Origin: Stramenopiles sp. TOSAG23-6
Lineage: Eukaryota
Direction of reading: 5' to 3'
DNA length: 47,610 nt
Assembly: GCA_900128565.1 (NCBI GenBank)
Contig: LT635926.1
Span: 1-47,610 of the forward strand
Made by a program: the position numbers and the translations under genes. The notes beneath the pieces were generated by a model that searched no databases, was not told the DNA's origin, and saw only the letters and a list, made by a program, of their open reading frames with translations. Positions 3,380-47,610 of this stretch are shown one piece after another (the stretch's first letter is position 1; the number at the start of each line of letters is the position of its first letter).

Positions 3380-6001
3380 TCATAAAATATTATTATCTCG
3401 AACCTGACCGTGGTAAAAACTCCGAATAAGACCAATACCCATAGAACAAAGCAATGCTTGTGTAATAGCGAAACATAAGAGCATATTATTCATAGTTGGT
3501 TCAATAGATTTCGACATTTGAGAGACCGCAACAAGAATACAACCAAATACAGATCCAAGTATTGGCAAAATCATAACAAATAAACCCGTAAATGTATTAG
3601 ACACACTAATTTTTACAATATCATGTAAAACAGACATATTAAAGCCACGCGACAATTGAACAAATACAAAGTATAACATTCCACAAAAAATATACCGTAT
3701 TGAACCTCCAAAACCAAATGTATGACTTTCAGATTCTTTGAATGGATATTGAAATAATGACATTATACCTAAAACAAGTAATACTTGAAGAAATATGACC
3801 CCTAAAAATGTTTGAGCATTGCTGCTTAAATAACCTACCATAAAATGGCATGGTAAAACAAGAACTCCTAATAAAGATATATAAAGGCATGATGCAGTTT
3901 CATACCACTTAAAAAAGTAAAATGTCACTTCAGGGATCATTATAAGAAATGTTTCCTGTTGAGCATGTATTGTGAAAAAATATTTTTTTTAATCGTTAGG
4001 TACAGAATTTCGTACGAAAAAAACTACTTCGAAATTGAAATGAAAACGTACATGTAGAATAAACACAAGTATGAGACAATATGGAATACCATACATCACA
4101 CGAATTAATGAATCATTATGCGTGATATTTTCACTTCGATATTGACGTCGAGTTTTTCCAATGAATTGATTATTATTGCTGAAATCATCTTTAGATGTAT
4201 TTGTGTTTTCAGTCACATCAAAACGAATATCTTCAACGTTTTTCATTTGTCTTATATTTGATATCTTGTCCATATTTTTGGAGAGTTCTATTGTATCACA
4301 CTTTTTAGAATCCAAATCACAGTTTGACAAAGAATTATAGTTATTCACCTTGTTCCCTTTTAACAAACCGTATGAGGCTGTTGAAACAGGTCTAATAGCA
4401 TTTGATTCGTGAGAGTTGGTATCAATATCTTCAAATTTCATTATGATAAAAATTAGCAAAATAGTCCACATACATGCCAGTAAATAACCCGGTACTGGAT
4501 GACCCGCAAATTTCATGACTGGAATATTAATTTCAGTGTGATATGTAATGATAAAACCTGCAAGCATTGGGCCAAGGAATAGTCCTACTGATCCAGCAGC
4601 AACAAATATAGCAGAAGCATATGTTCGTTGTCTCCTTGGTACAAATGATGATATATATCTTCTAGATAATGAACCAGAGCAACCAAGGCCACAAAGAATG
4701 CGACCGCAAACAAGCATCCAAACATAACCAAAATAACTTGCTAATGCATACATTAAATTCCCAAAAATGAGTAAAACTACACTAAATATAAAAGTGTTTT
4801 TGAAACTTCCATTAAAAATTCTTTCTGCTCTGTATCTATAAGGAATAGCAACTAATAATGATGCAGCTGGCATTGCGCCAAATGCCACTATACCAAAGCC
4901 AGGATTGTGTAAGGCAGATGCGTAGTTTTCTACAGTAGGAAGGATTATATAATGTATTTTGGAAAAATATTTCAAAAAAACAATCGTTAGGTACAAAATT
5001 TCGTACGAAATAAACATTCAAAATTGAAAAAAAATAAAACATACATGATTTGTTGTATACAAAAGAGTACTAACAGCACTAATTATTAGTGAATTTTTAG
5101 AGTAGACAATATTTATCTTTCCCTTTTCTTGTCGTAAACAAGGTTTCAAACACAACAAAGATGTTCCACTTTCTTGTGAATCACTACTGGTACTACTCCA
5201 GTCTACGTCTACAGAATCATCTGATGAGTTGTTATACGTATCATAATTCGAATCAGAAGCAATTACAGATAGAACATCTAAATTAGCCAAATCCATCCAG
5301 CTTCCAGCTTCTTTTGCACGGAAATGATGTTTATTTACATCTTTTAATAAGGTACCAATCATAACTGTAATTTCTGCTTCGTCACTTGAACAAGTTGTAG
5401 CAGAGATTAAATTGGCAGCTCTTAGATTTTTCATTGTCCCTGACATTTTAGACACTAAATCAGTCAAAATACTATTATACTGAAGACCTTCAATAGACTC
5501 ACGACGATAACCAGATTGATAACTTTGTAAGAATTCTGTTGTTATTGGATTTGTTGAGATTTTTTTATCATGTTTTTTCAATATTTTCCGAAGACCAGTC
5601 AAATTGAGCTCAACATATTTCAATAGTCTCACAATTTGTTGGCCGAGTTTATTGTACTGATTTAAAAGTTGCTGACCTAGAATATCTTTTTCTTCTGAAT
5701 TACTTTCACTTACTCTACTGCCTACTCTTGAAGTTTTTACTCTATCACACAAATCAAGAAATGCTATTCCTTCTTCTTGAATCTCTGCTTCCTGTTTCGA
5801 ATGAAAGACAATGATTTTGCTAAGCTCCAACTCTAGTTGAGTCACAAAAATACGCTGCTTAATTTCAGTAAACGAAGAATTGCCATCTTTCTGGCACAAA
5901 ACTATCGCTTTGATACGTTTCTTTAGACTTTTATAATCTAAATATTTATCCTTCCACTCTTGATCAAGAGTTTCGTTCAGCTTCTTTGCAAATTGAACCA
6001 T
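3380..6001 (-). CDS. SPX-domain MFS vacuolar phosphate transporter (SPX-MFS/PHT5-like); exons 6001-5045, 4951-4052, 3964-3380 (~813 aa)
   Basis: SPX motifs MVQFAK..W..KYLDYKSLKK and YVELNLTGLRKILKKHDK; MFS motifs GNLMYALA, GRILCGLG, RRYIS, GL.LGP. Removing two family introns gives LLYTTNH|YIILPT and FILH|AQQETFL. Confidence 0.9.
3965..4051 (-). other. Non-canonical family intron (GT...AT), 87 nt, phase 0
   Basis: Minus strand CAT|GTACGTTTTCAT...TTTCGTACGAAATTCTGTACCTAACG...AATATTTTTTCACAATACAT|GCT; contains an in-frame stop. A CAG 9 nt downstream is an in-frame alternative but would shorten a TM helix. Confidence 0.85.
4952..5044 (-). other. Non-canonical family intron (GT...AT), 93 nt, phase 0
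   Basis: CAT|GTATG...TTTCGTACGAAATTTTGTACCTAAC...CCAAAATACAT|TAT; in-frame TGA inside; removal restores N-H-YIILPT; first downstream AG is out of frame. Confidence 0.88.
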
Positions 6002-6420
6002 TGAAAGCTATCAAAATTAAAGAATTTAATTTGCTAAAAATAATATTATCGTTTATAGCAGTAGTCAATAATATTCCATTAATGGTTAAATTTGAGGTAT
6101 TGTGCGCGGCTAGGAATACAATACGCAATCGATAATATGATGATTATGTAAACACCACAGACCAAGCCCAAGGCAAGGAAGAATAATATATTTTGGATCA
6201 TGGGCCGGCCAAGAAATGAAAAAAATTGGCTTCGGCTTCTTCGTCTGAAAATCCAATTTCGAATTTCAACAAGTCCGAGGCGAGAGTCAGTCAAATCTTT
6301 CAAAATTTCATTATAAATAGTCCACTTTTTCTTAGTATAATATTATAGTAGGACTCTTCCACAGAACTTGAAAGCGTGTTGTTCATGAAGAGGTAGTCAA
6401 ACACACCAACCAAAACACAA

Positions 6421-9085
6421 ATGGACGCATTCCATCGTGATGGATACACTGTAATTCGTGGCGCAATTTCGCCAACCTCAGTTGAAAGCTTTACTGTGCA
6501 ACTTAATGAGGAACTATGTTTGAATTGTGGAACTGGGACAACTGATCGAACTTTAGACAGCGTTAATCTATCAGAGCCTAATACATGGCCTTCTGGTGGA
6601 TCTCGTCGCGTTGTTGAGTGTGCTCCGTTGGGAGTTGGGTCGCATTGGAATGATCTGAAACAATCTAAAGTCCTGAGTGAAGCATTAAACGCTTTATTAG
6701 GAAAAAATTGTTGGGAAATACCTCTCAACACAGCGGATAGTTGTATACGACACTGGTACTGTCCTGTATCATTCCCGGAGCATAGTAATTTAAACCATAT
6801 TGATAGTAAATATAGTAGTCAACATAAAGCAAAAAATGCTGTACATAAAGTCAAGAAAAGAAAGAATTCTACACAGTCTATTCATACTTGTACAAATTGT
6901 GGCTCAATATTTCCCAGTCGGAACAAACTTTTCAAGCATTTACCTTGTGATGATCCAGTCACTACAATTTCTAACGGAAATAGATATAAAAAAAGTAAGA
7001 ATCTGAATGATTCAAAACATATAGATACTAAAAAATATTCCATTGAAAATACACAAAAACAAAACATTGAAAATACACAAAAAAAAAATCCAAATCTTCG
7101 ACGAATAATTTTAGAGTCTTGGAAAGATGAATTAAATCGTATTTCAAAGTTTAAAACCTCGCCCACTCAACACTGGCAGCCTGTGAGTAGACGTAGATTT
7201 CGGGGTAAGGGATGGCACATTGATATTGGCCCTGGTTTTCCAGTGGATGAATTGCGTCGATTATGTACGTTAACCCTAACCCTAATCATCATTTTTTTTT
7301 ATATTTTTTTTTCTTAGTAAAGTTTGTACCTAACAAATTTCTAATTTAAAATATTTTTTTCACAGTACATCAGGTAGTCCAATTCAAGGAATGGTTGTAC
7401 TTGTTTTGTTATCTGATTGGACTATAGGTAGTGGAGGAACAGCGATGATACCTGGTAGTCATAAATGGGTTTCAAAACAGTTATACAAATCGGAGTCTTT
7501 AAGCCCGCCTGGAATTTCACATTCAGATCTAAATAATTGGTGTGTTCAGTATGTACGTAAATTGGTTGATGATGGAAAATTATGGATAGAAAATAATAAT
7601 AATAATAATATCAATAATAATAATAATAATAATAATAATGAAAGATTTATTGTCCGTCAGATATGTGGGAAAGCCGGTGATATTGTATTAATGCACCCAT
7701 GGCTTATACATTCAGGTACAACAAACATGACGAATGTACCACGTTTGATGGCAAATGGTATGATTCAAATAAAAAATAGTGTTTTTTCTCGTGAAGGATG
7801 TCGCCTTCTTCAAAAGAATTTCGAAGAAGAAGATACAATGGGAATTGAAATATGTTCAGATAAAAGAAAAAAATCTATTGTTTCACCAAGAAGTTCAAAA
7901 GTAAACAAAAAACAGAAAAAAGGTAGCAGTGAAACTAATTTTACTGTAGAAACAAAATGTAGTACAGTTATACGACCTCTTCGTCTCCCATTACCGATTA
8001 TTCTACCAAAAGTTTCAGTAATTATTCCTATATATAACGCTTGTCCTTGGTTACATGAATGTTTATCATCTATACTATCTCAATCTTATTTTCATGAATA
8101 TCAAGGATCTATCGAAGTATGCATGTATGATGATGCAAGTACTGATGATTCAGCAAAAGTCATTTTAGAATGGAAATCAAAATTTATAAATGCTGGTTTT
8201 GAGTGTGTATGTAATGGACACGGTCCATATTGGGTCGATAAAACAAATATTCCTGGTGGTGCAGGTAATGCAAAAAACATGGCAGTATTAAATAGTACTG
8301 GTACTTTTCTTTGTTTTATTGATGCCGATGATTATATGAGACCTGATAGAATTGTAAAACAATTAGCATTAGTACAAGGTCGAGATGATGTACTGATCGG
8401 CTCAGGTTTTACAAGGAATCCTAATGATGCAACTTTACATTATTCAAATTGGTGCAATTCTTTAACAAAAAAACAATTATTTTTAGAACAATATCGCGAA
8501 ATTACAATTATTCAACCCACGTGGTTTTTATCACGTCGCCAATTTGATCGTGTCGGTGGTTATGAGACTCAGTCACCAGATTCAAATTCACCTTTTCCCT
8601 CGGATCTTGTATTTTTTCACTCTCACTTGGATAAGAATGGTTGTTTGGATAGAGTAAATGAACCATTAGTTACATATCGATATTTAGCAAATAGTGTTTC
8701 ATGGCGCATTCCACGAAAAGTATTACTTCAAAAACGTTTACGTGCTTTAGAAAGGCGTGTTTTATCGAAAAAGAGATGGGGGAAATTTACAATTTGGGGA
8801 GCTGGAAGAGATGGGAAAAACTTTATTAACGAACTTTTACCAAAATACAGATCTCAAGTTAGTGCTTTTTGTGATGTTGATTATAAAAAAATCAAAAGAG
8901 GTTATCATAACCATAAACCTCGCCCCGCTGGATCTCCACCTATTTCAATACCTGTAATACATTTCACCGAAGCAAAGGCTCCTATCATTATATGTGTTGC
9001 AAAAGGACGTACTGGTGGTCAATTAGAGAGTAATATTAAGTCTCTTGGACTTATTGAAGGTTACGATTATTGGCACTTTTCATAA
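6421..9085 (+). CDS. Fusion of PhyH-like Fe(II)/2OG dioxygenase, C2H2-like zinc finger and GT2 glycosyltransferase (B3GNTL1/QTGAL-like); exons 6421-7264, 7371-9085
   Basis: F..DGY.VI, WHID, GGT..IPGSHK, GKAGDIVLMHPWLIHSG..N...PR (PhyH, split across the intron); CTNCGSIFPSRNKLFKHL; VSVIIP.YNA..WL.ECL.S, DDASTD, CFIDADD, PTWF, FTIWGAGRDG, AFCDVD, TGG.LE.N..SL.L.EG.DY.HFS (B3GNTL1-like). Confidence 0.85.
7265..7370 (+). other. Family intron (GT...AT, or GT...AG at 7373), 106 nt, phase 1; carries TAACCC repeats
   Basis: TTAT|GTACGTTAACCCTAACCCTAA...TGTACCTAAC...ATATTTTTTTCACAGTACAT|CAGG. The first CAG (7365) is out of frame; CAT (7370) and the next CAG (7373) are in frame. Confidence 0.8.
7591..7639 (+). 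repeat. (AAT)n microsatellite encoding poly-Asn
   Basis: Run of aat triplets inside the ORF. Confidence 0.9.
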
Positions 9086-9234: not shown

Positions 9235-12200
9235 CTACTGTCCGAAAAGCGCAAATGCTAATTGACTTCCAAACCCAGCAGCAAAACGAATTGCGTATTT
9301 TGGATGCGAGCGTCCCCGTTTTGCATCGTTTTCAATTGAATCAACAGTCATGACATGTAATGGTCCAAGTGATGGATCGAGAGTAGAATGATTAACTACT
9401 GGGGGAATATTTCGTTTTTTATTACTCCCTAAACAATCACGATTATTAAGGATACATGTTGCAATAACATCTTCAAATGCAACTCCCATAGCATGACCTG
9501 TCTGGCCCTTTGTAGCACAAACGCGAAGTAAAGGAAACAATTTGGGTCCAAATGCTTTACGTAATGCAGCAGCTTCAACACCACCACATGAAATCAATGG
9601 ATTCCCTAATCCATCTGTGCCTGTTTCGTGTCCAATATAAACAGCATCGTCTACAAGGTTCTTTTTTGTAATTCCATGATTCTTTTCGATACATAGAAGA
9701 AATCGATCAAGCTCTGAAGCAACATGATCAGCACTTAAACGCGCCCCATGGAATGCTGAATTACTAATTTGGGTGGCAAGAAGAAGACATTGAGATTGTT
9801 TCTCTTCAATTTGAATATTCCGCAAACTATGTGTCCTTTCAAGAACAATACCGACTGCACCTGAACCCAAAAGCATTCCATTACGACGAACATCATAAGG
9901 TAAAAGGCCATTCTCTGGTTTCCCTGAAGTACATGCAGCGCCAACAGCGAGAAATCCACTAGCTACATGGGGGAGTAGAGTGTCGTTACACGCATCATCA
10001 CCAGCAACAACAATGACTCTATCGCAACGATCATTTGTAATCCAATCTTGAGCAATTGATAAAGCCTGTGTTGTTCCTGCACAAGCTGCCATGATTTGTG
10101 TATTTGGACCTCGAGCAGCACATGCCTGTGCAAGTTGTACGGCACCTCCATTTAATATAGAAAATAAATATTTTCTATCAAATCGAGGGATATCAAATTC
10201 GTCATTATTTTCATCATTGGCACTTTCTCGTAATGATTGTCTGTAAGAAGTTTCCTCTTTCACAACAGACTCTAAAAACGCAAATGATGCTGCACAAACT
10301 ACACCTGTTCTATCTCGTAATTCTATCGGCAATTTCCAGTCATGGGCACCACCTGCACCAGGTGAATTAGCATGTGTTCTACCCACAATCATAGGTGATG
10401 GTGCTCTTTGACGGCAAACCAAACCTGCATCTAATAATGCTTCAAGTCCAGCAGCTACAGCTAATTTACATGCAGAATCCATAGTACTTACTAAAGATGG
10501 AGACATTCCATAATCTGTAACAAGATCTAATGTCCCCTCACAACGTCCAGCAAGACGCATACATTGATCTTCCCGATTTAATGAAATTAAATGCGTTGCA
10601 TTTTTCTGACGAACCAATTTTGTTATTTTCCGATCAAGTTGATTCTTCAAATTCTCAGTAGGCAAAACTGTTACCAAACATTCACCACTAAACATACGAT
10701 TTTTATTTTGACTATCGAATACACGACGACCTTTAGGACAAGGAAGCCCAATAGAAGTTCCAAGTACAGCTAGAGGAATATGCTTGGATTTGCGACCTTC
10801 CACAAATGTTTTATTCTTATTATTATTACGTTCTGCACTACTAGGTAAATCAATTGAAGGTATTGATTTAAACGACTGTGATGATTGAGATGATGAAGAT
10901 TTCTTGTGCTTTGAAAATTCTTGAATTTCATTTTCTTCATGTGGTGAATGTCGTGCTGTATTTGCTATAGAACATGCTACATTCACTGTACTTGCAGTTT
11001 CTATACATTTACTGGAGTAACTGCGTCTTTGTTTTGAATCTATACTAACAAGATAATAGCCACCAGGTACGATATTATCTACACTTCCTTGGGGATGCCA
11101 TATTTCACCTTTAGTAACTGTAGATAATAATGCAGATTTTGTCATTTCTCGCATTTTTAAAGCATTTTTAAACTCTTCAGGATGGACAATTTTTCGATCA
11201 TTTAATCGCTGTATTAAGCCAACCTTGTTTTTAATTAGTTCTAGAGAATATCGATTACTCTTTGTTTTGCGACCTCTCAATGCAAACATTGTAGCTATTG
11301 CCCCTGAACCATATGAAAACACCGAAATTCTCTTACCATGAAGTAATTTTCCTTTTGTAGATATTAAAGACAAAATACCTGCAAATACAGATGCAGTATA
11401 ACAATTACCTATAGAACAGGGTAATAATGTAGAAGGTTGAACTTTTTCGGTAAATGTAGGAAAACTAAGTTTTCGTAGGATTAGGTCTAAAGGACGATCT
11501 GTGTACGTCTCCGAAAGAGTCACATTTTTCCATGGTAGTAATTCTTTATCATACTCATTATTACTGTTATCTGTTTTTTTATGATAATCATGCAAATATA
11601 AACGAGAAAATGATTTAACAACAAGTTTGTTGTATGGTGCATGGAACACAGAATAATCAATTGTAGATAATTCTCCGTCGACATCATTCACTGGAAGACC
11701 TGTCAAAGACCTGGAAGTTTGACTCTTACGAGAAAATCCAACATAGCAATAGTCTAGTGCACGAAGGTAACATGTCTGTGACAACTTGCCATCAACGATA
11801 GGGTATTCAGATGACATATTTGGCTTGTAAAAGTCATATGTATCAGCAGCATATGAGGTCCGTGTTCGCGCTTCCATTGCAAGAGGAGCATCTGGTCCAA
11901 CCAAGAAAGCCACAGCACCGACGCCACCAGTAGGACGAGCAGGCCCATCTGCATAAACTGCAATATCTGCTGCTACAACTAATGCAAGACGACCATCCCA
12001 TTCTTCACTCTGTACCCAGGCAACAGAATTAAATAGTGCTGCAGCCCCACCATAGCAAGCGTTAACAGACGTAACACCTTCAACGTCAGTGTTGTTTCCG
12101 AAAAGTTGCATCAACACTGTCTTTGGCGACTTGGATTTGTCCACGAGAGACTCAGTGCCTACCTCAATACGACCAATATCAGATGGTAACACATCATATC

Positions 12201-16201: not shown

Positions 16202-17211
16202 TTAATTTCGTTGAAATGGCATCCTTTCAGTAGCTGTATCAAAGTTTGAATAATTTCTATTGTCACTTCCAATCGCCATTGCAATAGATATTGCAGCTTC
16301 TGCTGTAGCTGAGACTGATGCAAGTGTAGGAGTTGTTTCTCTACTATTTTCACTGGTGAGATAAATATCTATTGAATTTGGAATTTCTTCATGTAGTAAA
16401 CTATCAATATGATTCGCGTTCTTTGGGCTTCCCCCAGGTGCTGCAGCAAATGCATTCTGGTCATTACTTCCTCCTGTACTGTGGTTTACTAACTCCTTAT
16501 TCACATCATTGACGTAAGGGATGTATTGTGAAAAAATATTTTAAATTCAAAATTCGTTAGGTACAAAATTTCCTATGAAAAAAATTTTTTTTAAATTCAT
16601 GATAAAACGTACGCAATCGAACTAATGCGAGCTTGCATACTATTTATTTGTTGGTGCATGAGAGAGATGCGCTCTTCAAGAAAAGCAAAATTAGATTTTT
16701 CAAAATTTTCTCTATCATCATCAGATGTCTCATTGTATATTATAGTATCACTCACAGAGCCATAATCACTATTATAGTTGGAAACAATGGAGTCAGAATC
16801 ACTATAACTATCAAATTTTGTACCATTATTATCGACTTTCTTATTCGTTGACTCAAAATTCTCTCTCACTACATTTTGCTCAATATATTCATCTTCACTG
16901 TTCTGTTGTGTATCGATATGCTCCATGTAAGATATAAAATCAACATAGGAACAAATACCATTTCCCAAAAGGTCAAATATCTTCGGCACAACTTCTAGTT
17001 CATGAGCTGTTATACGAACAATTCTACACAAAACTTTTCGAAACTCGATGTCTGATACGATTCCAGTTTCTTTGCTGTCAAATTTTTTGAATTCTTCATG
17101 CATATTTTTTTGGTGTGCCAGGCCGACATACGAATAAAATCTAAGTTTTTTCCTTAACTTTGCAAGAACTGTCGCGACTTTGGTGAAATGATTCAATTCT
17201 TCAGTTGACAT
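16202..17211 (-). CDS. EF-hand protein; exons 17211-16613, 16520-16202
   Basis: EF-hand loops FDSKETGIVSDIEF and FDLLGNGICSYVDF; removing the family intron joins the two ORFs in phase 2. Confidence 0.7.
16521..16612 (-). other. Non-canonical family intron (GT...AT), 92 nt, phase 2; upstream exon ends GC
   Basis: ATTGC|GTACGTTTT...GAAATTTTGTACCTAACG...ATATTTTTTCACAATACAT|CCCT; no in-frame AG within ~30 nt downstream. Confidence 0.8.
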
Positions 17212-26208: not shown

Positions 26209-28075
26209 TTAATTTTGTAGCAAATGTCGTTTTTTGTTAATAATTTCCCTAACAATATTCATTACCTGAGTAAAATCTGTTGTTGGATTTAATTTAACAT
26301 AGTCTTTCGAAGCAACAGTTATAATTGAACACCATTTTGGTATATATGCAACGAGCATCACCAACAACTTATCTACTTTTTCAATAGTCACGTCACTTTT
26401 ACCCTTACAACGAAAACTTTCAGAAATTCTCAAAGCTAAATTTTTTCTCAAAATTGTTGTTTTTCGTCTTGTGCTGCAGTATTGATGTATTGTACAACAA
26501 ACATCGGGCAATAGCTCAAGTAACATCATCTGAGTATGATGCTTGGCTCGTTTTTGGAGCACATTTGCATTTTCTTCTTTTGATCGAATTGTAGCAAGTA
26601 AATCAGAAATATCTGATGAAGACGTTGAAGATTGTGAATTCTCCAGTGGATTATGTATTTTGGAAAAATATTTCAAATTGTTTTTTGTTAGGTACAAAAT
26701 TTCGTAAAAAAAATCGAATTTGAAAAAATATAAACCATACATGGATCGGACCAATTAAATCATCAGTAGATGACTTTTCATTTTGTCCACTCTTTGATTT
26801 TAAACTTGCTATGGACTTCATAGCTATTTTGTCTGCTTCAATATCATTGCAAGGTGGGTATGGAATATCCATTAAATTATCGATTTTTTTTCTGTTTGTA
26901 TGAGGATCAATAGTAGAATTAAGAGAATCTCTATGAGTTGAATTACTTTCTAAAGCATAAGCATCTTGCTTTATTTTTTTCTCTTTCAACACATTTTGAA
27001 GATGATCACAGAGACGCTGATACATTATATCAATGCGAAGACTTAATTTTTCTCCCGATGCCGAACTTTTTTTCCGAGATGTACAGTTTTGTAATTGTGT
27101 TATTTTTGTAACGTCAGGATTAATTAATGAAATGTTTTCTGATTTTTTATTAACACCACTATTTGAAATATCCATACCATTCCGCTTAGTAATGTCATAA
27201 AGCTTTTTACGTTTCNGTTTTTTACTTTTTACATTTGAAGTAAGAGTCGTAGAACAATTAAATTTAAATTTTTCTCGAGTGAATACAATTGCAGGGGGTT
27301 CTCCGACATTTCTCGAACTTTCTAAAAAAGTAGCATTTTGTTCTTTTGAATTTCCGTTCATTACATTCTTGACATGCGCTGGCCAATCTATATTATAATC
27401 TGGATCACCACCTAGAAGATACTGACGTGTAGGGGTAATTACATAAGCTTCCTCATATAAATTAGAAATTCGTCGAAGATGTTCAATTGGAAAGGAACGT
27501 TTTGTCGCATGTTCAACAGCAGATTTTATTCGTGAAAATACAGAAATTTGACGCCGTGTTTGCATTATTGTCAATACTGTATCAAGAGCACCAAATGTAT
27601 GGAGTAATATGCTGTAATTTGGAGGCAGAGTTATTGTTTTAGATTTATTTGATTTTCCAGAATATTTTTTGTTTAAATATTCTGCAGTAGCTGTATTAGG
27701 CATATTCTCATTGGTCACTTGCGTAATCTGTCTTCTGTTTTCATCTCTACGACGTGACGTTTTACGTAAAGAAGACTTCTCTAAAGATGTATAATTTCCC
27801 CTTTGTCTTACTGATGGGGCTTGCATTTCGGATCGCTTCCGTTTTTGGGGATGTGTATCAAAGAGATTATCGTCAGCGTTGCGCCGCTTTTGTGACAGTA
27901 GACAACGTTGGCGTTGCATTGGATTTTGAAACAAAAATCGTTTTCGTGCACGTCGGTTGGATAATGCATTCAATACTTTTGAACAATTTTCATCATTCCT
28001 TTTGTTTTGGGACAACTTTATACCTTTGGTATTTTCCATTAGGAATGATGAGTTGTTTTCACTATTATTGCTCAT
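26209..28075 (-). CDS. CDT1: DNA replication licensing factor Cdt1; exons 28075-26741, 26652-26209
   Basis: LP.NY..L...F.ALDTV..I...R.....F..IK.AVE..TKR.F...HL..I..L (CDT1 domain); C-terminal winged helix LPDV...I....RK...L..L...IP.W. Confidence 0.8.
26653..26740 (-). other. Non-canonical family intron (GT...AT), 88 nt, phase 0
   Basis: ATCCAT|GTATGG...ACGAAATTTTGTACCTAAC...ATATTTTTCCAAAATACAT|AATCCA; length is not a multiple of 3 and removal joins the two Cdt1 ORFs. Confidence 0.85.
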
Positions 28076-34597: not shown

Positions 34598-35728
34598 ATG
34601 CCAAATTTAAAACTGCAGCCAGATTTACGCCGAGTGTCCTTTGATAGTCCAAAGTACACCTCAGTACAAGGTAGTGAAATTGAATCTCTGGAAGTACCCG
34701 GAGAAAACAGTTTAGTACTTGCTCCTGAAAGAAATGAGGCATTGAAAGATTCATCAGATTATAAGAAAATAAGTTTATCCATCTTGTTTCTATTATTTGG
34801 TTGTTTAGAGCTAGTATTGAAGCGATGGTTATTTCTCCATAAATTCCATTTTCCGGTTTTTACAGCTTTTGTAACTCAATTATTTTGCTCTTTTGCTTTA
34901 TTATCTGGTCTTTTACTTCAACTTTGGAAATTTTCTCCTGAACGTAAAGAGCCATTTTTTACTGATTCTTCTTTATGCTGTAAGTTACTGGGATTAATGT
35001 TGCTACATGGTGGAAACGTCACATTAGATTTGGTTGGGTTGATGGAAATGCCAGCTGCTGTTGTTAAAGTAATCCGAACACCTAAACCTCTTTATACCGA
35101 CTTACTCACGTGGGCATTTTATGGAGTTCGTAGTACTAGGAATCAATGGTGTGCAATGATTTTAACATTATTTGGTGCCATATGCACAATTGCTAAAAAC
35201 CCACATGTTACAATCCTTGGTTTAATATCAGTGTCTGTTGCAGCTGTGTTTTCAGCTGGTCATTTTGTATTAGCAGCGTCAGTTATGAATGTTTTATTTT
35301 TTTTTCAAATTCGAATTTATTTTTCATACGAAATTTTGTACCTAAGGATTTTTTTTTTTTTTTTTGAAATATTTTTCTAAAATACATGAATGATAATGGT
35401 GTAGACCCTTTGTCTCTCATGCTATTACTCAGTGCCCCATTAACTATATTTTTAATACCGATTGTTTCATATGTAGATGGATTTACAAATGTAATTGAAT
35501 TTTGTGATCAACCCGGGGAAATGTATGTATGTTTTTTTTTTTCAATTGTTTTGTCTACATTTTTTTTTTCAATTGTTTTGTCTACATTTTTTTTCTAACA
35601 AAATTAAAAATGCTTTTTTGAAATATTTTCATACAATGTATAATGTTTTATCAGCTTTACTTCCAGCGTCAATTATATCATTTTTTCATAGTATTTTAGG
35701 TTGGTATCTAATTAAGTGGACGACACCG
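34598..35728 (+). CDS. TPT/SLC35 nucleotide-sugar transporter, C-terminally incomplete; exons 34598-35286, 35388-35526, 35642-35728
   Basis: FHFPVF.AF..Q, L...L..M......VIR..KP, DPLSL....AP, LIKWTTP; many TM helices; the usual last two helices are absent. Confidence 0.7.
35287..35387 (+). other. Family intron, 101 nt; GA...AT in the family register (GT...AT if slid 4 nt)
   Basis: GTTAT|GAATGTTTT...TACGAAATTTTGTACCTAAG...ATATTTTTCTAAAATACAT|GAATG; 7-nt direct repeat ATGAATG; removal restores frame. Confidence 0.8.
35527..35641 (+). other. Family intron (GT...AT), 115 nt, phase 0
   Basis: ATGTAT|GTATGTTTT...TTCTAAC...AAATATTTTCATACAATGTAT|AAT; internal ~27-nt duplication; removal gives GEMY|NVLSALL. 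Confidence 0.8.
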
Positions 35729-35823
35729 GTACGTTTTCATTTCAATTTCAATTTCAATTTTTTTTTTCGTACGAAATTTTGTACCTAACGATTTTAATTT
35801 TTGAAATATTTTTCATAATGAAT
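35729..35823 (+). other. Family intron at the TPT / PA-domain junction; 3' end uncertain (35819 or 35823)
   Basis: CCG|GTACGTTTTCAT...TTTCGTACGAAATTTTGTACCTAACG...AAATATTTTTCATAATGAAT. Confidence 0.7.
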
Positions 35824-37186
35824 GTAGCCCTTTGCTTAATACTTCTGTAGGGTTAGGGTTAGAGGATTCTGTACCTAACACAAATAAAGATGACACAGCA
35901 TATGTATGTTTAGAAGGAGATGGTATCAATAATGACAATCCACCTTGTTTATCATGTACGTTTTCATTGTGAATATCAAATGTATTTTTGTTTTCATAGT
36001 AAATTTTGTACCTAACGATTTAAAAAAAATACTTTTTCACAATACATCAAGTATCAAAGGTAAAGCCGTTATTATGCTACGTGGCTCTTGTGACTTTTCT
36101 ACTAAAGTAAAACATGCTGAACAAGCTGGTGCTGCAGCAGTTATTGTTGGTAATTATAGAAAAGATGTAAATGAAGGCAAAATTAAATCTTATTTTAGTC
36201 GGTATACTACAACATACAAAACAACAACTGATATTATTAGTCATGAAAAAACTGATAATGATTTTCAAAGTATTTATGGTGATGAGACTGTACGTATGAG
36301 TAGTGATGATATTATTAGTATGAGCCGTGATTTTAGTGATACAACTGAAATCCGAATGTACGTGTATATCATTTTAATTTTCATTTTAAGTTTGTTTTCG
36401 TACGTAATTTTGTACCTAACAATTTTTGAATTTTTGAAATATTTTTTCACAAAACATTCCTTCAATATTTTTGTCTCTCAATGATTTTCGTACTTTTCTT
36501 TATCAATTAAATGAACAATATAGAGCGAAAAGTTCAGATATACATTCAAATGTATCAAACGATACACGCGAAATTCATGTAAAATTTCATGGAAAATTAC
36601 ATCAAACAAAGCACAAAGGACTTCATTTTAGAGATTTAGGTTTACATGTACGTTTTCATCATGAATTTCAAAAAAAAATCATTCTCTCTCTCTCTCTCGC
36701 TGTCTCTCTCTCTCTCTCTCTCGCTGTCTCTTGCTTCCTCCACTGCCCATGTCTAAATTCTCGCGCTCTCTCTCTTCTCTCTTACTTCGTCTCTCTCTCT
36801 CTCTCTCTNTCTTGCTATCACTCTCTCTATTCCTCTTCTCTGTCCGTGTCTCAAGTTTTTTTTTCGTACCAAAATTTGTACCTAACGAATTTTTTGTACG
36901 CAAAAAAAAATATTTTTTCACAATGCATCCTTTTGTACAAGTTAGTAATGCTAAAGTCAAAATTTCAAATGTCAAGAAAATTGATATTAATAATAGTAGT
37001 ATTAGAAATATGCCAACTCCAATGAATCAAGCTTTTTCTGAAAGTAAACTTGAATGTGTTTTGTCTTCAATTTCACATTTGAAAAAAAAAGATAAAATAT
37101 CTCAAGATGAAGAAATTATTGATGAAAATTCAAGTCGTCAAAAAGTTCTGATTAGTAACGTTCAAATATGTAGAAATAAGAATTAA
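35820..37186 (+). CDS. PA (protease-associated) domain protein, 5'-incomplete or fused to the upstream transporter; multi-exon
   Basis: Spliced product CSPLLN...SIKGKAVIMLRGSCDFSTKVKHAEQAGAAAVIVGN...IRIPSIFLS has the classic PA-domain motif order. Confidence 0.75.
35847..35903 (+). other. Candidate 57-nt minimal family intron (GT...AT), in frame and stop-free, with GGGTTA repeats
   Basis: TCT|GTAGGGTTAGGGTTAGAGGATTCTGTACCTAAC...GACACAGCATAT|GTA. Confidence 0.55.
35956..36047 (+). other. Non-canonical family intron (GT...AT), 92 nt, phase 1
   Basis: TCAT|GTACGTTTTCAT...AAATTTTGTACCTAACG...CACAATACAT|CAAG; the AG 4 nt downstream is out of frame. Confidence 0.85.
36358..36457 (+). other. Non-canonical family intron (GT...AT), 100 nt, phase 2
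   Basis: CGAAT|GTACG...TTCGTACGTAATTTTGTACCTAAC...ATATTTTTTCACAAAACAT|TCCT; restores the PA motif IPSIFLS; no AG from the branch box to >60 nt downstream. Confidence 0.9.
36648..36928 (+). other. Family intron (GT...AT), 281 nt, expanded by a CT-rich microsatellite
   Basis: TTACAT|GTACGTTTTCATCATGAA...(CT)n...TTCGTACCAAAATTTGTACCTAACG...CACAATGCAT|CCT; removal is in frame. Confidence 0.8.
36683..36853. repeat. Imperfect (CT)n microsatellite
   Basis: Runs of ctctct within the intron. Confidence 0.9.
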
Positions 37187-42614: not shown

Positions 42615-45600
42615 TCAGACTGTTTTAACATACATTACATATTTCGGTTGCATTATGCTGGCCACCCTACCAATTCGAAAATCTTTTTCACTGTCAGGAA
42701 TAGCGCAGTAGGGAATATCAGTCAATTTCGGATCGGAAATATCCCTGTTCAACTCAAAAAGCTCTCGTTGGAGACGTTCATGATAGTACTTTTTTGTGTT
42801 TTCCTCGACACAGTCCAATTTCAAAAACTTAGATACTATCAATGCTTTGATTGATGGAGAAGTATCTTCAGATGAATATGTCATTGCTGAATGAATACTA
42901 GTTGTAGAATAAATACCAAAGCCATGTATTGTGAGAAAATATTTCAAAAAAAATCGTTACGTACAAAATTTCGTATGAAAAAAAACTTAAAAAGTTGAAA
43001 TAGAAAACGTACATGCACACTTCGCTTCAATTTGGAAAGGTCAAAACCATGTTTCATAATAGAAAAAATATTTCGTGGTTTGGTACCATGAAACGTCCAA
43101 TCAAATTGAATCTCTGGAGTTTTTGGATTACTTTCAAATTGAGATTTTAATTCCAGATATTGATGCTCAAGACGTGGATTATTGCAATATACAACTTTAT
43201 CTAATTTATATTTCGCTAATGTACCAGATTGTTCGTTTGATCTCTTGAATATTTCTTCTGCAATTGTATAATTAGGGTCACCTTGATAGATAACTTTGCA
43301 AAATGAAAACGTTGGATGTATCTGAAATTCTACAAATATTCCATTATGGTCAGATGCACCACTTTCCAACATATCTAATACCCGATGTGAAACTAATGTT
43401 GCAGGGAATTCAGATGCATGGCATTGTTTAGCAGCGACCATGGTATCAGATTGTGAAGGTTGAAGTTTTTGAGATATCAATTCGAAGGACATAGATTCTT
43501 CAGAATTAGGTTTAAATTGAGATTCTTCTTCAAATTCAGGTTCAGGTTCAACTTGAGATTCTTCTCTAGATTCAGGTTCAGGTTCAACTTGAGATTCTTC
43601 TTTATATTCAGTTTTTCCTTCAAGTTCAATTCGAAAAAGAAAACGCTTCTTATAAAATACTCCATCTGGAGTACCACCATATGCAGAAGTTATTTCTGCA
43701 ATTTCTACAGGTGTGTACTGTGTTGGAAAAAATATGTTTTATATTTGAAATTCGTTAGCTTAGGCACAAAATTTTATACCAAAAAAAAAACAAGATTAAA
43801 ATTAATTATGAAAACGTACATTCTCATCAATGAGATATTTTTCTGGTAGAGAATTCCACTGTACTATATCACTCTCTGTCCAGTTTAATTTCTGTAAATA
43901 AGATACATTGTTTCCTCTGGAGTCACTATTCAAATCACCCAAGATAAAATCTGAATTTTGATAAACAGCAACTTTCAATAATTCTAATTTAGCTTTTTTT
44001 ACATCAATACCATTACTAAATATAATTGACTCGTCATTCGATCCACCACAGAGATGGACATTTGTTATGGTATATCTATCAAGTAAATTATCGGTTTTTC
44101 CATCAGTAATTTTTGGTTTGATTGTAATTGTGTTAATTGCTCTATGAGTTGGACAAGTTTCCTGATTTTTTACAACTTCTAATTGATGCCATCGTTCATT
44201 ATCTATCACCCATAAAGACTCATCTCGAATATATATTGACATACTCTCCGTATGCATATCAATATAAGATTTTCGGGAATATCCAAAAAGATGTAAATCA
44301 TCAAAAGACTCCTGAAGTACTACAACATCTGGAGTACTTTCAGCTAAATGTTTATTCAACATATCTTCAACATTTTCTCCACGATTATTATAAATATTGA
44401 AACTTGCAATTTTTAATGGTATAGATGTACTTCTTCTTCTTGACTTATCTAGATGCATAACAATCTCTTTTTGTTTTTCTACTCTCAAAGTAGAATAAGT
44501 CGTTATTTTAGAACCCAATTCAGGTTCATATTCAATTGTAACCCTAGGAACAGTTTGAGCTTTGTCCATTAAGTCAGTATCTTGTAAAAGCATTTGAATA
44601 GCATCTGTGCTATCTTTGCTTTCTTTTCCAGGATTCGTACGCAGTATATCTATAAATGGTACTCCTAAATGAAGAATTGCTGCTCGGAGAAAAGTTTCGT
44701 CATTCCATAATTCAGGATTATTTTTCATAATTGGATTCAAAGTCTCAACAGATCGAATGACAATGTTATGGCTTAGAAAACATTTCAAAACGAAGTCTCG
44801 ATTATTTAAGAATTTTTTTGCAGCTTTTCCAAATGTTTCTTTGGCATCTTCATGTAAATAAATTTCAGACCAAATTTTAGGAAATTCATTAATATTTTGT
44901 AAAACAAATGCAACATTTGAATATAAATCAAAAGGTACAAATTCAAACATTGACCAATCTTGTTGAATAGCATATAATGCGATTTCTTTCTCATTCCTCA
45001 AATCAGGAGATACGTAATAAAAATTATCCGAATTCTGTTGAATAGCACATAATGCAATTTCTTTATCATTCTTCATATTTTCTGGGATGTATTGTAATGC
45101 TTCGCCATTTTTACAAACAACAGAAAAAATAAAATCACGATCTTCAAGTAAAGCTGAAGAAAACACATAGTTCAATACATGACGTATCTTAAAAAATATG
45201 TCAAATTCGAAAATCGTTAGGTACATTTTTTTTAACGTAAAAAAAGATATTGAAATACATTATGAAAACGCACAGGAAATTTTTCACTTGCATTTAAAAT
45301 AAAGTTACGATTAGCAAGTAACTCTTTTGTCGCATGTTCCATGATAAAACCGAAGAGAAATTGAGCATTGGGAATTTTTAATACGTCAAGTATAAATGCA
45401 GAATCGCCACGCAAAGTCACCGAGGCATTTTGAAATAGGTTTATTTCATGACGCAAAATCTTCAGCATAAAATTGGCATCGCTACGTAACTCTGAAGAAC
45501 CAAATTTTATAAAGACTACCAACTTTAGAGAATCTGTAGAGTCAAGTATTTTTCTTTCTTTTTTGAGTTGAAAAATATCCCTCAAAAGAATATCCTTTAT

Positions 45601-46408: not shown

Positions 46409-47503
46409 ATGGTGGATATAAAAGGATTTTTCATGAATTTTTTGTCAAAGTCGCAACCTGTGGATCAATTCCAGGAGCACTGGAAAAGCGTTCAAAATAG
46501 TCATAATATTTTAGTAAGACAATCTAAAACGTACAATGATGTCAAAGCTTTAAAAGCGTCTAAAATTCCGGATAAGTTGCGTCACATGTTAAAATTATTA
46601 CTTGAAGAACAAAATGAGTTCCTTGAGTTTGATGGTGGAGGTGTAAGTGACGTTCCTGCTGCTGGTCCTTGCCTTGAGTTCCTTCTTAATAGTCGGTTAG
46701 TTGAGTCATTATGCATGATGGGCTTAGCAGATACTCCTCATGGTATGATGTCGATTGTTCTCCAAACAGTCTATGTCCTCGTAAAACACGTGAAAAGTTC
46801 CTTATTACCTCATATGTTTGTACATGCCCCAGTATGTCAACTGATTTTTGTTACCTCTGAATTAGTGAAAGATTTACGTTCAAAGGCGGCAACTGAACAT
46901 ACAGTGAACCAAAAAAAAGTTCAGTTGGCACTCGTTGCACTTATAAATGCTATATGGTGGAGAATTAAAGAGGATACATCACAGCTTAGTTTTTTTATTC
47001 ATGAAAATAATACGAGAAAATATCCAGATATTGTCATTTTTACTGCACTTTTACCTTATATTCATGTAGGTTCCTACGTACTATATTTTATTATTATTTT
47101 TTTTCCTTTTTTTATAGATAATTTCGTACCTAACATTTTTTTTAGTAAAAATATGTTTCACAGTATTTGTACGTGGACGTATTGGTGAGTATGCTCGAAA
47201 TGCTATTTTAACTGTAATGCAGTTAAATAATCTCTCCAAAATATCGAAAATGATAGTTCATGTATGTTTTTTAACCCTAACCCTAACCATATATGATGAT
47301 CATGAATTTCAATTTTTTTTTTTTTCATAGTACATTAAATTTTCATACCTAACAAAAAAAAATAAAATTTGACATACTTTCACAAAATACATGCAACTAG
47401 TTTTTGTCATCGAATTGTCGAAGGCTTAGTAAGATCGTATAAAGTGTTACCGATGACTTTTGAAGCTGCAAAAACTGCATCAAATTCGACAACGATGTTA
47501 CAT
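46409..47503 (+). CDS. FHIP/FAM160 (RAI16-like) protein, runs off the window; exons 46409-47065, 47169-47261, 47393-47503
   Basis: F..HW..V, L..EE, GPCLEFLL...L...LC..G..D.P.GM, LLPH..VH.PV..L; spliced LLPYIH|VRGRIGEYARNAIL and IVH|ATSFC...GL...Y..LP. Confidence 0.85.
47066..47168 (+). other. Family intron, 103 nt, apparent GT...TT ends
   Basis: ATTCAT|GTAGG...TTCGTACCTAAC...ATATGTTTCACAGTATTT|GTACGT; with this donor the internal CAG is out of frame and leads to a stop. Confidence 0.7.
47262..47392 (+). other. Non-canonical family intron (GT...AT), 131 nt, phase 0; carries TAACCC repeats
   Basis: GTTCAT|GTATGTTTTTTAACCCTAACCCTAACC...CATACCTAAC...CACAAAATACAT|GCA; next AG is out of frame. 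Confidence 0.85.
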
Positions 47504-47610
47504 GTACATTTTCATCATGAATTTCGAATTTATATTTTTTTTTTTTGAAAATTTTGTACCTAACAAAAAAAAAACATTTTTTTTTTTTTAGTTTTTTTTC
47601 GTTACATTTT
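47504..47610 (+). other. Family intron at the window edge (possible end TTACAT at 47607)
   Basis: TTACAT|GTACATTTTCATCATGAA...AAATTTTGTACCTAAC; downstream exon not visible. Confidence 0.65.

What the first reader, a model, noticed from the sequence alone, without database searches (positions are those of the whole stretch)
4952..5044. Introner/MITE-like signatures: AT target duplication, terminal inverted repeat and internal palindrome
Seen: 14 of 18 upstream exons end in AT (9 in CAT), matching the AT at the intron end. The junctions read ATGTA....TACAT, which is an inverted repeat. The body carries the palindrome TTTCGTACGAAA, overlapping the near-palindrome GTACGAAATTTTGTAC. Copies in unrelated genes are alignable. 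Established: introner elements (Micromonas, Aureococcus) are non-autonomous DNA transposons that co-opt a splice site from the target-site duplication. Inference: an element GTA...TAC inserted at (C)AT sites and the duplicated AT became the 3' splice site. Homopolymer drift between copies suggests the burst is not very recent. No transposase is in this window.
Basis: partly seen in the sequence, partly recalled or inferred. Interest (0 to 1): 0.8.

Follow-up and report, generated by a model that had tools for sequence, protein, structure and literature searches.

The report
Repeated introns ending in AT, not AG
The 93-base segment is one copy of a many-copy family of near-identical short introns in a marine protist, and these introns appear to be cut out at GT...AT instead of the near-universal GT...AG, which breaks standard gene prediction.

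Summary
Window 4952-5044 (minus strand) is a 93-nt intron in an SPX-MFS transporter gene. The nearest database protein carries a MAST-3-like label.

- **Family.** It is one of 16-17 alignable copies in this window, sitting in at least 8 unrelated genes. All are sense-oriented and none is intergenic.
- **Shared parts.** Copies share GTAYGT, a non-signal block, TTTCGTACGAAA, the branch motif TACCTAAC, and a 22-nt 3' block ending ACAT.
- **Boundaries.** Removing exactly GT...AT restores gapless colinearity with homologues at 4 of 4 tested junctions and keeps the frame at 8 more. GT-AT is the only terminal pair that fits all 12. One copy ends ACAG at the homologous place.
- **Annotation.** A database gene model for this gene forces a GT-AG intron, losing 20 conserved residues, and reads through the next intron to a stop.
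- **Abundance.** Seawater DNA contigs show many further copies with different flanks. Their similarity stops exactly at the intron ends.

"Introner-like family" is supported. "MITE with TIR and TSD" is not shown: the inverted repeat is 5 nt, there is no conserved hairpin, and the (C)AT repeat is fully explained by two consensus motifs.

Direct RNA junction evidence is still missing.

The parts
4952..5044 (-). The finding: 93-nt family intron (GTATG subfamily) in the SPX-MFS gene, phase 0, GT...AT
   Evidence: Removing it gives a gapless alignment to 40 of 40 homologues within +-6 columns. No in-frame AG is available.
3965..4051 (-). 87-nt family intron (GTACG subfamily) in the SPX-MFS gene, phase 0, flanked by the 6-nt direct repeat TACATG
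   Evidence: Colinear with homologues: 35 of 40 have no gap, and the other 5 lack the region.
5045..6004 (-). SPX-MFS exon 1 (SPX domain), ends ...TTNH (CAT)
   Evidence: Pfam SPX, E 4.8e-18.
4052..4951 (-). SPX-MFS exon 2 (MFS N-terminal half), starts YIILPTVENY, ends ...FILH (CAT)
   Evidence: Pfam MFS_1, E 3.7e-15. 688 relatives at E<=0.001, and nearly all of the 150 listed align from query residue 1 or 2.
3380..3964 (-). SPX-MFS exon 3 (MFS C-terminal half)
   Evidence: Aligned to homologues.
7265..7370 (+). 106-nt family intron in the PhyH/GT2 gene, phase 1. An AG 5 nt before the end is out of frame. The end is ACAT| or, 3 nt later, CAG|. Carries AACCCTAACCCTAA just after the 5' splice site.
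   Evidence: A seawater DNA contig (X3 record 3) spans it.
16521..16612 (-). 92-nt family intron in the EF-hand gene, phase 2, exon end GC. No direct repeat, so GT-AT is the only register.
   Evidence: DNA contigs X3 records 6 and 7 run into it from both exons.
26653..26740 (-). 88-nt family intron (GTATG subfamily) in the CDT1-like gene, phase 0
35287..35387 (+). 101-nt family intron in the TPT transporter gene. The homologous 5' end is GAATG, and a 7-nt direct repeat ATGAATG allows a GT-AT register 4 nt downstream.
   Evidence: Gapless against 2 of 2 homologues.
35527..35641 (+). 115-nt family intron in the TPT gene with an internal 27-nt tandem duplication. Ends GTAT. The 7-nt direct repeat AATGTAT excludes an AT-AC register.
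35729..35816 (+). Family intron 5' part and core. The 3' end is uncertain (CAT at 88 nt or AAT at 91 nt fit the frame, AG does not). TPT homology stops here.
35956..36047 (+). 92-nt family intron before the PA domain, phase 1
36358..36457 (+). 100-nt family intron, phase 2, ends AACAT
36648..36928 (+). 281-nt family intron enlarged by a (TC)n tract, phase 0, ends GCAT
42924..43012 (-). 89-nt family intron in the DUF4116/PARP-like gene, phase 0, branch motif TACGTAAC
43718..43819 (-). 102-nt family intron that ends ACAG at the place homologous to ACAT: the one GT-AG copy
45182..45273 (-). Family intron starting GTGCG. The homologous end ACGT (92 nt) is in frame, and so are AAG (86 nt) and CAT (95 nt).
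47078..47168 (+). Degenerate family intron in the RAI16-like gene. The homologous end ...GTATTT is in frame; no AT or AG end is in frame. The donor could also be at 47066. Unresolved.
47262..47392 (+). 131-nt family intron (GTATG subfamily) with AACCCTAACCCTAA after the 5' splice site, phase 0
47504..47607 (+). Family intron at the window's end (CAT|GTACATTTTCATCATGAATTTCG...TTACAT|). The downstream exon is cut off.

Best explanation
Window 4952-5044 is a U2-type-looking spliceosomal intron. It belongs to one introner-like family that has multiplied through the genes of a compact, AT-rich marine protist. The nearest protein bears a MAST-3-like label.

Each copy carries its own signals: GTAYGT at the 5' end, a TACCTAAC branch motif, a T-rich tract, and a 22-nt 3' block. 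The intron ends a fixed 22 nt after the start of that block. It is excised at GT...AT (usually ...ACAT|), not GT...AG.

Shown here:
- family membership;
- similarity outside the splice signals;
- subfamily structure;
- exact agreement between the repeat unit and the intron;
- frame and homology proof of which bases must be absent from the mRNA.

Inferred:
- that the spliceosome performs the excision and tolerates U (or G) as the last intron base;
- that copies arose by copy-and-insert.

For the mode of spread, I favour insertion of the intron itself into transcribed, sense-oriented (C)AT| sites. That means either a reverse-splicing-like route or TIR-less 'direct insertion'. My odds are about 35% for this route and about 25-30% for a DNA transposon whose AT/CAT target duplication supplies the 3' site. 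The window cannot separate the two.
For: 1. Family. BLAST of the 93-nt copy against the window gives E 1.4e-14, 3.5e-12, 5.4e-11, 8.5e-10 and 3.3e-9 to other copies. The alignment of 11 copies runs end to end. The profile finds 14 copies at E<=2e-6 and 2 more at E<=0.0014, though it was built from 11 of them.

2. Similarity outside signals. TCATCATGAATTTCAA has 12 matches against 2.7 expected, 7 of them at the homologous place. The 5' variant is linked to the 3' variant: 4 of 5 GTATG-type copies against 1 of 10 GTACG-type copies have A at -8 (p 0.017).

3. Boundaries.
- Removing 93, 87, 101 and 115 nt gives gapless colinearity with homologues at 4 of 4 tested junctions. At SPX-MFS junction 1, 0 of 40 homologues have a gap within +-6 columns. 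At junction 2, 5 of 40 do, and those lack the region. At the two TPT junctions, 2 of 2 homologues are gapless.
- The GT...AT cut keeps the flanking long frames joined in 8 more copies, with lengths 88 to 281 nt, 5 of the 8 not multiples of 3.
- GT-AT is the only terminal pair common to the 4 homology-tested copies and to all 12 clean copies.
- No in-frame AG exists for the finding's intron.
- In 13 of 16 copies there is no AG between the branch motif and the end. 11 of 16 end exactly 22 nt after the start of the 3' block, 4 end at 21-23 nt, and the uncertain i35729 ends at 14 nt.

4. Position over dinucleotide. One copy ends ACAG at the homologous position. This suggests the position matters more than the dinucleotide.

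5. Annotation. Gene model P0001 (99% identical) uses a forced GT-AG intron that deletes SAVSTLLYTTNHYIILPTVE, and it reads through the second intron to a stop.

6. More copies elsewhere. In seawater DNA run X3, 30 contigs diverge from the window exactly at 4952 and 18 at 3964, with low flank agreement (0.39). At least 92 contigs cover place 5011.

7. The intron is in the DNA. DNA contigs of X3 run from exons into or across three of the introns, so it is not removed at the DNA level (records 2, 3, 6, 7).

8. Context. 16 of 16 copies are sense and genic (P of 0 intergenic is 0.013 under blind insertion). 11 of 15 are in phase 0 (p 0.0018).

9. Weak hint. A polyA-RNA contig (X7 record 26) stops at 3963 with 74 letters unplaced. 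That is where a transcript lacking the 87 nt would stop, but its other piece was not listed.
Against: - No RNA junction was seen. The joint table was filled by repeat noise and cut, with 122 rows not shown.
- Because of the (C)AT repeat, the exact phosphodiester bonds are ambiguous in most single copies. GT-AT is an inference across copies.
- For 7265-7370, a canonical CAG 3 nt downstream is also in frame. Canonical in-frame AGs further downstream exist for 5 other copies. Only the 4 homology-tested junctions exclude such alternatives.
- Two copies fit neither AT nor AG cleanly (45182-45273 and 47078-47168).
- Only one window is available. I could not count non-family introns genome-wide, and summed contig depth is not a copy number (the tool's own warning).
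- A global pairwise identity measure did not separate copies from shuffles (median 0.82 against 0.76), so low complexity inflates apparent identity.
- The assembly may be chimeric at one copy.
Confidence: 0.7

Rival explanations
1. A non-autonomous DNA transposon (GTA...TAC) inserts at (C)AT, duplicates the AT, carries its own 5' splice site and branch site, and co-opts the duplicated AT as the 3' splice site.
For: - Exon end and intron end share AT in 12 of 15 copies and CAT in 8 of 15.
- Whole direct repeats are longer between an intron's own two ends than between shuffled pairs (mean 2.93 against 2.23, p 0.009). Three copies have repeats of 6-7 nt.
- It would explain why an otherwise orthodox intron lacks its own AG.
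- A published precedent has the same logic: Chrysochromulina introners with a 4-bp TSD, no TIR, their own 5' site and a co-opted 3' site (PMC9860276, passages seen).
Against: - Per-position own/cross match is about 1 at -1 to -3, so the repeat is what two consensus motifs give.
- Repeat length varies from 0 to 7, which is not a fixed TSD.
- The TIR is only 5 nt and does not co-vary. There is no conserved hairpin.
- 0 of 16 copies is intergenic or antisense.
- Deviant copies do not keep exon end equal to intron end: 16521-16612 has GC against AT, and 43718-43819 has AT against AG.
- At both SPX-MFS junctions, the exonic CAT (His) replaces residues conserved in homologues: Y in 33 of 40 and K in 31 of 36 aligned, with His in 0. 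The target was therefore probably not CAT originally.
Confidence: 0.25
2. Not mobile. These are ordinary, possibly old introns of a lineage whose splicing machinery demands very long fixed signals, so the likeness is convergent constraint.
For: The best-conserved blocks are the 5' site, the branch region and the 3' block with fixed spacing. Every intron I could find in the window looks like this.
Against: - Shared blocks lie outside any known signal.
- 5' and 3' variants are linked into subfamilies.
- Shared oddities such as AACCCTAACCCTAA sit at the same place in two copies.
- Homopolymer and tandem-repeat drift occurs between blocks.
- Exon-end His replaces conserved residues.
Confidence: 0.1
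3. They are minor-spliceosome (U12-type) introns read in the AT-AC register, like the AT-AC-rich, phase-0-rich minor introns reported in the related stramenopile Blastocystis.
For: 9 of the 12 clean copies allow an AT-AC register. The branch motif ACCTAAC resembles the U12 consensus CCTTAAC (consensus recalled). Blastocystis has 196 of 253 minor introns of AT-AC type and 49% in phase 0 (PMC10639083, passages seen).
Against: - The AT-AC register is impossible in 16521-16612, 35527-35641 (homology-tested) and 36648-36928.
- The 5' end ATGTACGT or GTACGTTT does not match [AG]TATCCTT (consensus recalled).
- The distance from branch A to the 3' end is 28-43 nt, far beyond the short spacing recalled for U12 introns.
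Confidence: 0.03
4. Artefact. The genes are pseudogenes or the assembly is wrong, and the true introns are GT-AG.
For: The source looks like a fragmented assembly, with ten single Ns. One probable mis-join lies at an intron copy.
Against: 12 copies behave alike. Independent seawater DNA contigs from another year agree with the window across or into three of the introns. Long intact frames and conserved domains lie on both sides.
Confidence: 0.02

Closest known systems
Introner elements of marine algae (Micromonas, Aureococcus; survey in PMC9860276 and PMC12130899)
   Same: Short, ORF-less, many-copy introns alike over their whole length, sitting in unrelated genes of an aquatic protist. Insertion and splicing leave mRNA length unchanged.
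   Different: Those use GT/GC-AG, and most confidently classed families show TIRs and/or TSDs of a known transposon type (passages seen). Here the 3' end is AT, the TIR is 5 nt, and a TSD cannot be shown.
Chrysochromulina sp. introners (PMC9860276, legend of Fig. 2C, seen)
   Same: No TIR. The element carries its 5' splice site, and the 3' site is taken from the target duplication.
   Different: There is a clear 4-bp TSD and a canonical 3' AG there. Here there is a 2-3-nt invariant repeat indistinguishable from consensus, and a non-AG end.
Alternaria-type and fungal introner-like elements (PMC9860276, legend of Fig. 2A, seen)
   Same: No transposon hallmarks; the copies appear to spread by 'direct insertion' of the intron itself. 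The repeat unit equals the intron.
   Different: They have canonical splice sites, and the lineage is fungal.
Amoebophrya non-canonical introner elements (PMC7789003, passages seen)
   Same: Repeated introns with non-GT-AG borders and 3-5-nt direct repeats overlapping the exon/intron boundaries. The host is a marine protist, and gene prediction is affected.
   Different: Those have 8-20-nt inverted repeats forming hairpins, no single dinucleotide rule and no clear 5' site. Here there is no hairpin, one rule (GT-AT), and strong yeast-like 5' and branch signals.
Rare GT-AT and AT-AC introns of animals and plants, and Blastocystis minor introns (PMC1557818, listing only; PMC10639083, passages)
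   Same: A non-AG last dinucleotide is tolerated by a spliceosome.
   Different: Those are a tiny minority and are mostly U12-type, with ATCC 5' sites and a short branch-to-3' distance. Here it is the prevailing type in the window and has U2-like signals.

Membership tests
U2-type spliceosomal intron | 5' splice site GTRNGT-like at the first intron bases | tested here: met
   G at +1 in 15 of 15, T at +2 in 14 of 15, A at +3 in 14 of 15, G at +5 in 15 of 15, T at +6 in 14 of 15.
U2-type spliceosomal intron | Branch motif like TACTAAC upstream of a pyrimidine-rich tract | tested here: met
   TACCTAAC in 12 of 16, and near variants (TACCTAAG, TACGTAAC, GCTAAC, TCTAAC) in 4 of 16, lying 28-43 nt from the end.
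U2-type spliceosomal intron | 3' terminal AG | tested here: not met
   1 of 15 ends AG; 13 of 15 end AT. GT-AT is the only pair fitting all 12 clean copies. Homology excludes AG alternatives at 4 junctions.
U2-type spliceosomal intron | Removed from mature mRNA, seen as junction reads or a lariat | tested here: inconclusive
   RNA contigs were laid, but the joint table was cut. One polyA contig stops where a spliced transcript would. There are no raw reads.
Introner (intron-generating repeat family) | Many copies alike over the whole length in unrelated genes | tested here: met
   16-17 copies in at least 8 genes. Further copies with different flanks occur in seawater DNA.
Introner (intron-generating repeat family) | Recent gain: presence/absence between strains or species, or positions not shared with relatives | not testable with these tools
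   No whole genome. No related genomic loci were found. Intron positions of homologues are not available.
MITE / TIR DNA transposon | Terminal inverted repeats of about 10 bp or more, specific to the family | tested here: not met
   Only ATGTA/TACAT (5 nt, 2 of them exonic), and it is broken in deviant copies. 0 conserved pairs.
MITE / TIR DNA transposon | Target-site duplication of fixed length | tested here: inconclusive
   Own/cross match ratio is 0.98-1.17 at -1 to -3. Repeat length is 0-7. Own pairs are longer than shuffled pairs, p 0.009.
MITE / TIR DNA transposon | Copies in both orientations and outside genes; an autonomous partner with a transposase | tested here: not met
   0 of 16 copies is intergenic or antisense in this window. 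The partner is not testable without the genome. No transposase domain was found in the window's ORFs that were scanned.
U12-type (minor) intron | 5' site [AG]TATCCTT and a branch site close to the 3' end | tested here: not met
   The 5' end is GTAYGTTTT and the branch-to-end distance is 28-43 nt. The consensus itself is recalled, not taken from a call.

The most novel reading that the evidence does not exclude
In this MAST-3-like stramenopile, most or all introns descend from one burst of a self-contained intron element. The major spliceosome picks the 3' cut by position, 22 nt after the start of a conserved intronic block, and accepts U as the last base.

The AG rule would then be broken genome-wide by U2-like introns. 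Published gene sets for such genomes, built with GT-AG-only predictors, would be systematically truncated. Some reported gene losses could then be annotation artefacts.
Probability: 0.35. Interest if true: 0.9.

Novelty: new variant of a known kind. Interest (0 to 1): 0.8.

Why it matters
**Spliceosome biology.** The last two intron bases (AG) are among the most constant signals in eukaryotic biology. A free-living, abundant ocean protist whose prevailing introns look U2-type but end in AT would be a natural experiment on how the spliceosome recognises the 3' splice site.

**Intron origins.** It would also be a new case of intron gain by a multiplying element.

**Annotation.** Gene finders that allow only GT-AG mis-model these genes, and one such model is shown here. 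Gene counts, completeness scores and claims of gene loss for such genomes need re-checking.

**What is in print.** In my searches and in the passages I read, I found no mention of such introns in this group. The papers read were:
- PMC5778133;
- PMC8163842;
- PMC12614181;
- PMC9860276;
- PMC12130899.

Supplements were closed and may hold more.

Tried and rejected
- Whole genome: not held.
- Rfam: 0 matches in the window.

**Searches for more copies**
- Scanned with the core pattern. Metagenome contigs gave 66 stretches, and none of 67 matches had the family context. Genome contigs gave 40 prokaryotic chance hits. Viral contigs gave 0.

**RNA**
- The two RNA runs are contigs only, and the joint table was swamped by cross-matches between copies and cut. 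No visible splice joint resulted.
- In the polyA run X7, the intron core has summed depth 7.2. In DNA run X3 it has 33,608, beside about 6.4 on single-copy flanks.
- In run X6 the ratio looks DNA-like.
- The tool warns that contig depth is neither a copy number nor a measure of expression, so I do not count any of this as evidence.

**Transcript-derived peptides across junction 2**
- The 'shorter' protein search gave 0 hits among 20 candidates.

**Homology tests that gave nothing**
- PDB search with SPX-MFS exon 2: 0 hits.
- The PARP junction: 0 and 1 irrelevant hit.

**Conserved RNA structure**
- None found.

**Pairwise global identity**
- Uninformative: 0.82 against 0.76 for shuffles.

**Registers and intron type**
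- The AT-AC register and the U12 type were rejected.
- Canonical alternatives for the finding's intron were also rejected. The only nearby AG (CTGTAG) is out of frame with every usable donor (and direct reading).

**DNA-level elimination**
- Rejected, because DNA contigs hold the introns.

- One search failed on a coordinate slip and was redone.
Full report
**What is at the coordinates.** On the minus strand, 5044..4952 reads CAT|GTATGTTTTATTTTTTTTCAATTTTGAATGTTTATTTCGTACGAAATTTTGTACCTAACGATTGTTTTTTTGAAATATTTTTCCAAAATACAT|TAT. It lies between two long open frames of one gene. Upstream is an SPX domain (Pfam E 4.8e-18) and downstream is an MFS transporter half (E 3.7e-15). The window is compact eukaryotic DNA of about 33-36% G+C. 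About 86% of it is covered by long frames.

**Likely lineage.** Seawater metagenomes hold the sequence. The nearest database protein, P0001, is 99% identical and carries the label eukprot:GSMAST32.ASY1.ANO1.807.1. That label reads like a MAST-3 marine stramenopile assembly. I treat the lineage as a lead only.

**A real family.**
- BLAST of the 93 nt against the window finds other copies at E 1.4e-14 to 3.3e-9.
- Eleven copies align end to end. A profile built from them finds 14 copies at E<=2e-6 and two more at E<=0.0014.
- Counting one more degenerate copy at 35527, I count 16-17 copies.
- The host genes are unrelated: SPX-MFS, PhyH/GT2, EF-hand, CDT1, a TPT transporter, a PA-domain protein, a DUF4116/PARP-like protein and an RAI16-like protein.

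**Likeness is not confined to splice signals.**
- A block just after the 5' site (TCATCATGAATTTCAA) has 12 matches at up to 3 mismatches, against 2.7 expected. Seven of the 12 lie at the homologous place.
- The 22-nt 3' block has 9 matches against 0 expected.
- The palindrome TTTCGTACGAAA is exact in 3 copies. It has 14 matches at up to 2 mismatches, against 3.6 expected.
- There are subfamilies. GTATG-type copies go with ...AAAATACAT and GTACG-type copies with ...CACAATACAT (4 of 5 against 1 of 10, Fisher p 0.017).
- A crude global identity measure did not separate copies from shuffles (0.82 against 0.76). I rely on the tests above instead.

**Where the intron ends.**
- The GT...(C)AT cut joins the flanking long frames in every clean copy, with lengths from 87 to 281 nt, most of them not multiples of three.
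- For the finding's intron there is no in-frame AG at all. The nearest AG (CTGTAG, 20 nt into the next exon) is out of frame with every usable donor.
- I tested four junctions against homologues. In scripts I joined the exon translations and aligned them.
- For SPX-MFS, 40 full-length relatives show ...STLLYTTNH|YIILPTVENY against the consensus ...STFLYMTNY|YIVAPTSGEY, with no gap in 40 of 40 within +-6 columns. They also show ...LILVFILH|AQQETF against ...IYFVLK|LVLESL. Here 35 of 40 have no gap, and the other 5 lack the region.
- For the TPT transporter, two homologues run straight across both junctions...AASVMN|DNGVDPLSL and ...PGEMY|NVLSALL.
- Because exon end and intron end share AT or CAT, a single copy allows several registers. 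Across copies, GT-AT is the only terminal pair common to the four tested introns and to all 12 clean ones. AT-AC is impossible in three.
- One copy (43718-43819) ends ACAG at the homologous position and is an ordinary GT-AG intron there.
- Two copies (45182-45273 and 47078-47168) have ACGT and ATTT at the homologous position, and that position is in frame in both.
- 11 of 16 copies end exactly 22 nt after the start of the block [GA]AAATATTTTT..., and 4 end at 21-23 nt.
- In 7265-7370, an AG 5 nt before the end is out of frame and must be skipped.
- This pattern suggests, as inference, that position matters more than the last dinucleotide.

**What the public annotation does.** P0001 is a gene model of this very gene. 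It replaces the 93-nt intron by a forced GT-AG intron, with its donor inside exon 1 and its acceptor at CTGTAG. This deletes SAVSTLLYTTNHYIILPTVE, the conserved start of the transporter. It also reads through the second family intron into ...FILHVRFHFNFEVVFFVRNSVPND-stop, losing the C-terminal 194 residues.

**Copies outside the window.**
- In seawater DNA run X3, at least 92 contigs cover place 5011. Thirty contigs diverge from the window exactly at 4952 and 18 at 3964, and their flanks disagree with each other (agreement 0.39).
- The repeat unit therefore stops at the intron's last base, and the flanks are different loci.
- Summed depth at the core is thousands of times that of the flanks. 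The tool warns that this is not a copy number, so I say only that copies are many.
- DNA contigs run from exons into, or right across, three of the introns (records 2, 3, 6, 7). The segments are therefore in the DNA of natural populations and must be removed at the RNA level.
- RNA evidence is the weak point. The RNA runs are contigs, and the joint table was cut.
- One polyA contig stops at 3963 with 74 letters unplaced. That is where a transcript lacking the 87 nt would stop.

**Testing the MITE reading.**
- The inverted repeat is ATGTA/TACAT, 5 nt of which 2 are exonic. It follows from GTA at one end and TACAT at the other, and it is not kept by compensating changes in deviant copies.
- RNAalifold predicts no conserved pair in 10 copies.
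- Exon ends are strongly (C)AT: AT in 12 of 15 against 9.4% background, and CAT in 8 of 15 against 1.9%.
- Position by position, an intron's own two ends match no better than ends of different introns (ratios 0.98, 1.07 and 1.17 at -1, -2 and -3).
- Total repeat length is somewhat longer for own pairs (2.93 against 2.23, p 0.009). This is driven by three copies with 6-7-nt repeats, and lengths range from 0 to 7. That is not a fixed target duplication. It could be microhomology.
- All 16 placed copies are genic and sense (P 0.013 for none intergenic under blind insertion). 11 of 15 are in phase 0 (p 0.0018).
- At both SPX-MFS junctions, the exonic CAT encodes a His where homologues have Y (33 of 40) or K (31 of 36), and never His. 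The CAT is therefore either selected as part of the 5' signal or made at insertion, rather than a pre-existing target.
- None of this proves or excludes a DNA transposon. I rate direct insertion of the intron slightly above the target-duplication transposon.

**Comparison with what is known.**
- Introners are established in many aquatic protists. Their ways of recruiting splice sites vary, including a family that carries its 5' site and takes its 3' site from a 4-bp duplication, and families without any transposon hallmark (PMC9860276, passages).
- Non-canonical repeated introns are known in Amoebophrya, but these have 8-20-nt hairpin-forming inverted repeats and no single boundary rule (PMC7789003, passages).
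- GT-AT occurs as a rare class elsewhere (search listing).
- Blastocystis, a stramenopile, has many AT-AC minor introns rich in phase 0 (PMC10639083, passages).
- The present family differs from all of these. It has U2-like 5' and branch signals, one boundary rule (GT-AT), no hairpin, and prevalence among the window's introns.

**Literature on MAST genomes.**
- The papers I read were PMC5778133 (passages), PMC8163842 (passages) and PMC12614181 (passages). They do not mention such introns. My searches found nothing either. Supplements were closed.
- One of these papers reports missing full-length dynein heavy chain genes and 'advanced pseudogenization' in one MAST-3 genome. I do not know whether that is the window's organism. 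If these introns are genome-wide there, such inferences deserve a second look.

**Verdict.** The intron is a member of an introner-like family that is cut at GT...AT. The finding is a new variant of a known kind. What is still missing is junction-level RNA evidence and a whole-genome census.

Noticed in passing
window 3380-6004 (-) and protein P0001: The database gene model of this gene forces a GT-AG intron that deletes 20 conserved residues, and it reads through the next family intron to a stop. It also removes an in-frame 54-nt GT...AG segment (about 5672-5725) that has no family features. Whether that segment is a real small canonical intron is open.
   Followed up: partly
window 35729-35900: Homology to TPT transporters stops at ...KWTTP(V) at 35731. 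The last ~70 residues found in both homologues are nowhere in the window, and a PA-domain reading frame follows instead. The contig is either mis-joined at an intron copy or rearranged there.
   Followed up: partly
window 7272-7285 (+), 47273-47286 (+), 35847-35860 (-): A telomere-like AACCCTAACCCTAA occurs three times (0 expected). Two of the three sit directly after the 5' splice site of family introns, in sense orientation. The third lies in the doubtful stretch after 35729.
   Followed up: partly
window 5045-5047 and 4052-4054 (-): The last codon before both SPX-MFS introns is CAT (His). Homologues have Tyr (33 of 40) or Lys (31 of 36) there and never His. The exon-end CAT seems to be imposed by the intron, not inherited.
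   Followed up: yes
window 36683-36828 (+) and 35533-35594 (+): Family introns grow by simple repeats. One holds a (TC)n tract of about 146 nt, and another holds a perfect 27-nt tandem duplication (2.3 copies).
   Followed up: no
window 9235-12525 (-): An intronless 1096-residue frame joins complete HMG-CoA synthase domains (E 2e-81 and 2e-79) to a C-terminal ketoacyl-synthase/thiolase-like part. This is a possible two-enzyme fusion of the mevalonate pathway.
   Followed up: no
window 17616-25064 (+): A 2482-residue frame without any intron lies beside genes that hold several. Introns are very unevenly spread: 34523-37186 holds seven, though that stretch may be two genes.
   Followed up: no
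window 36400-36405 (+) and the internal CGTACG of most copies: The motif GTAC recurs three times per intron: in the 5' site GTACG, in the internal CGTACG, and in TGTACC before the branch point. In one copy the internal motif is a perfect second GTACGT. This could be a relic of internal duplication or a decoy site.
   Followed up: no
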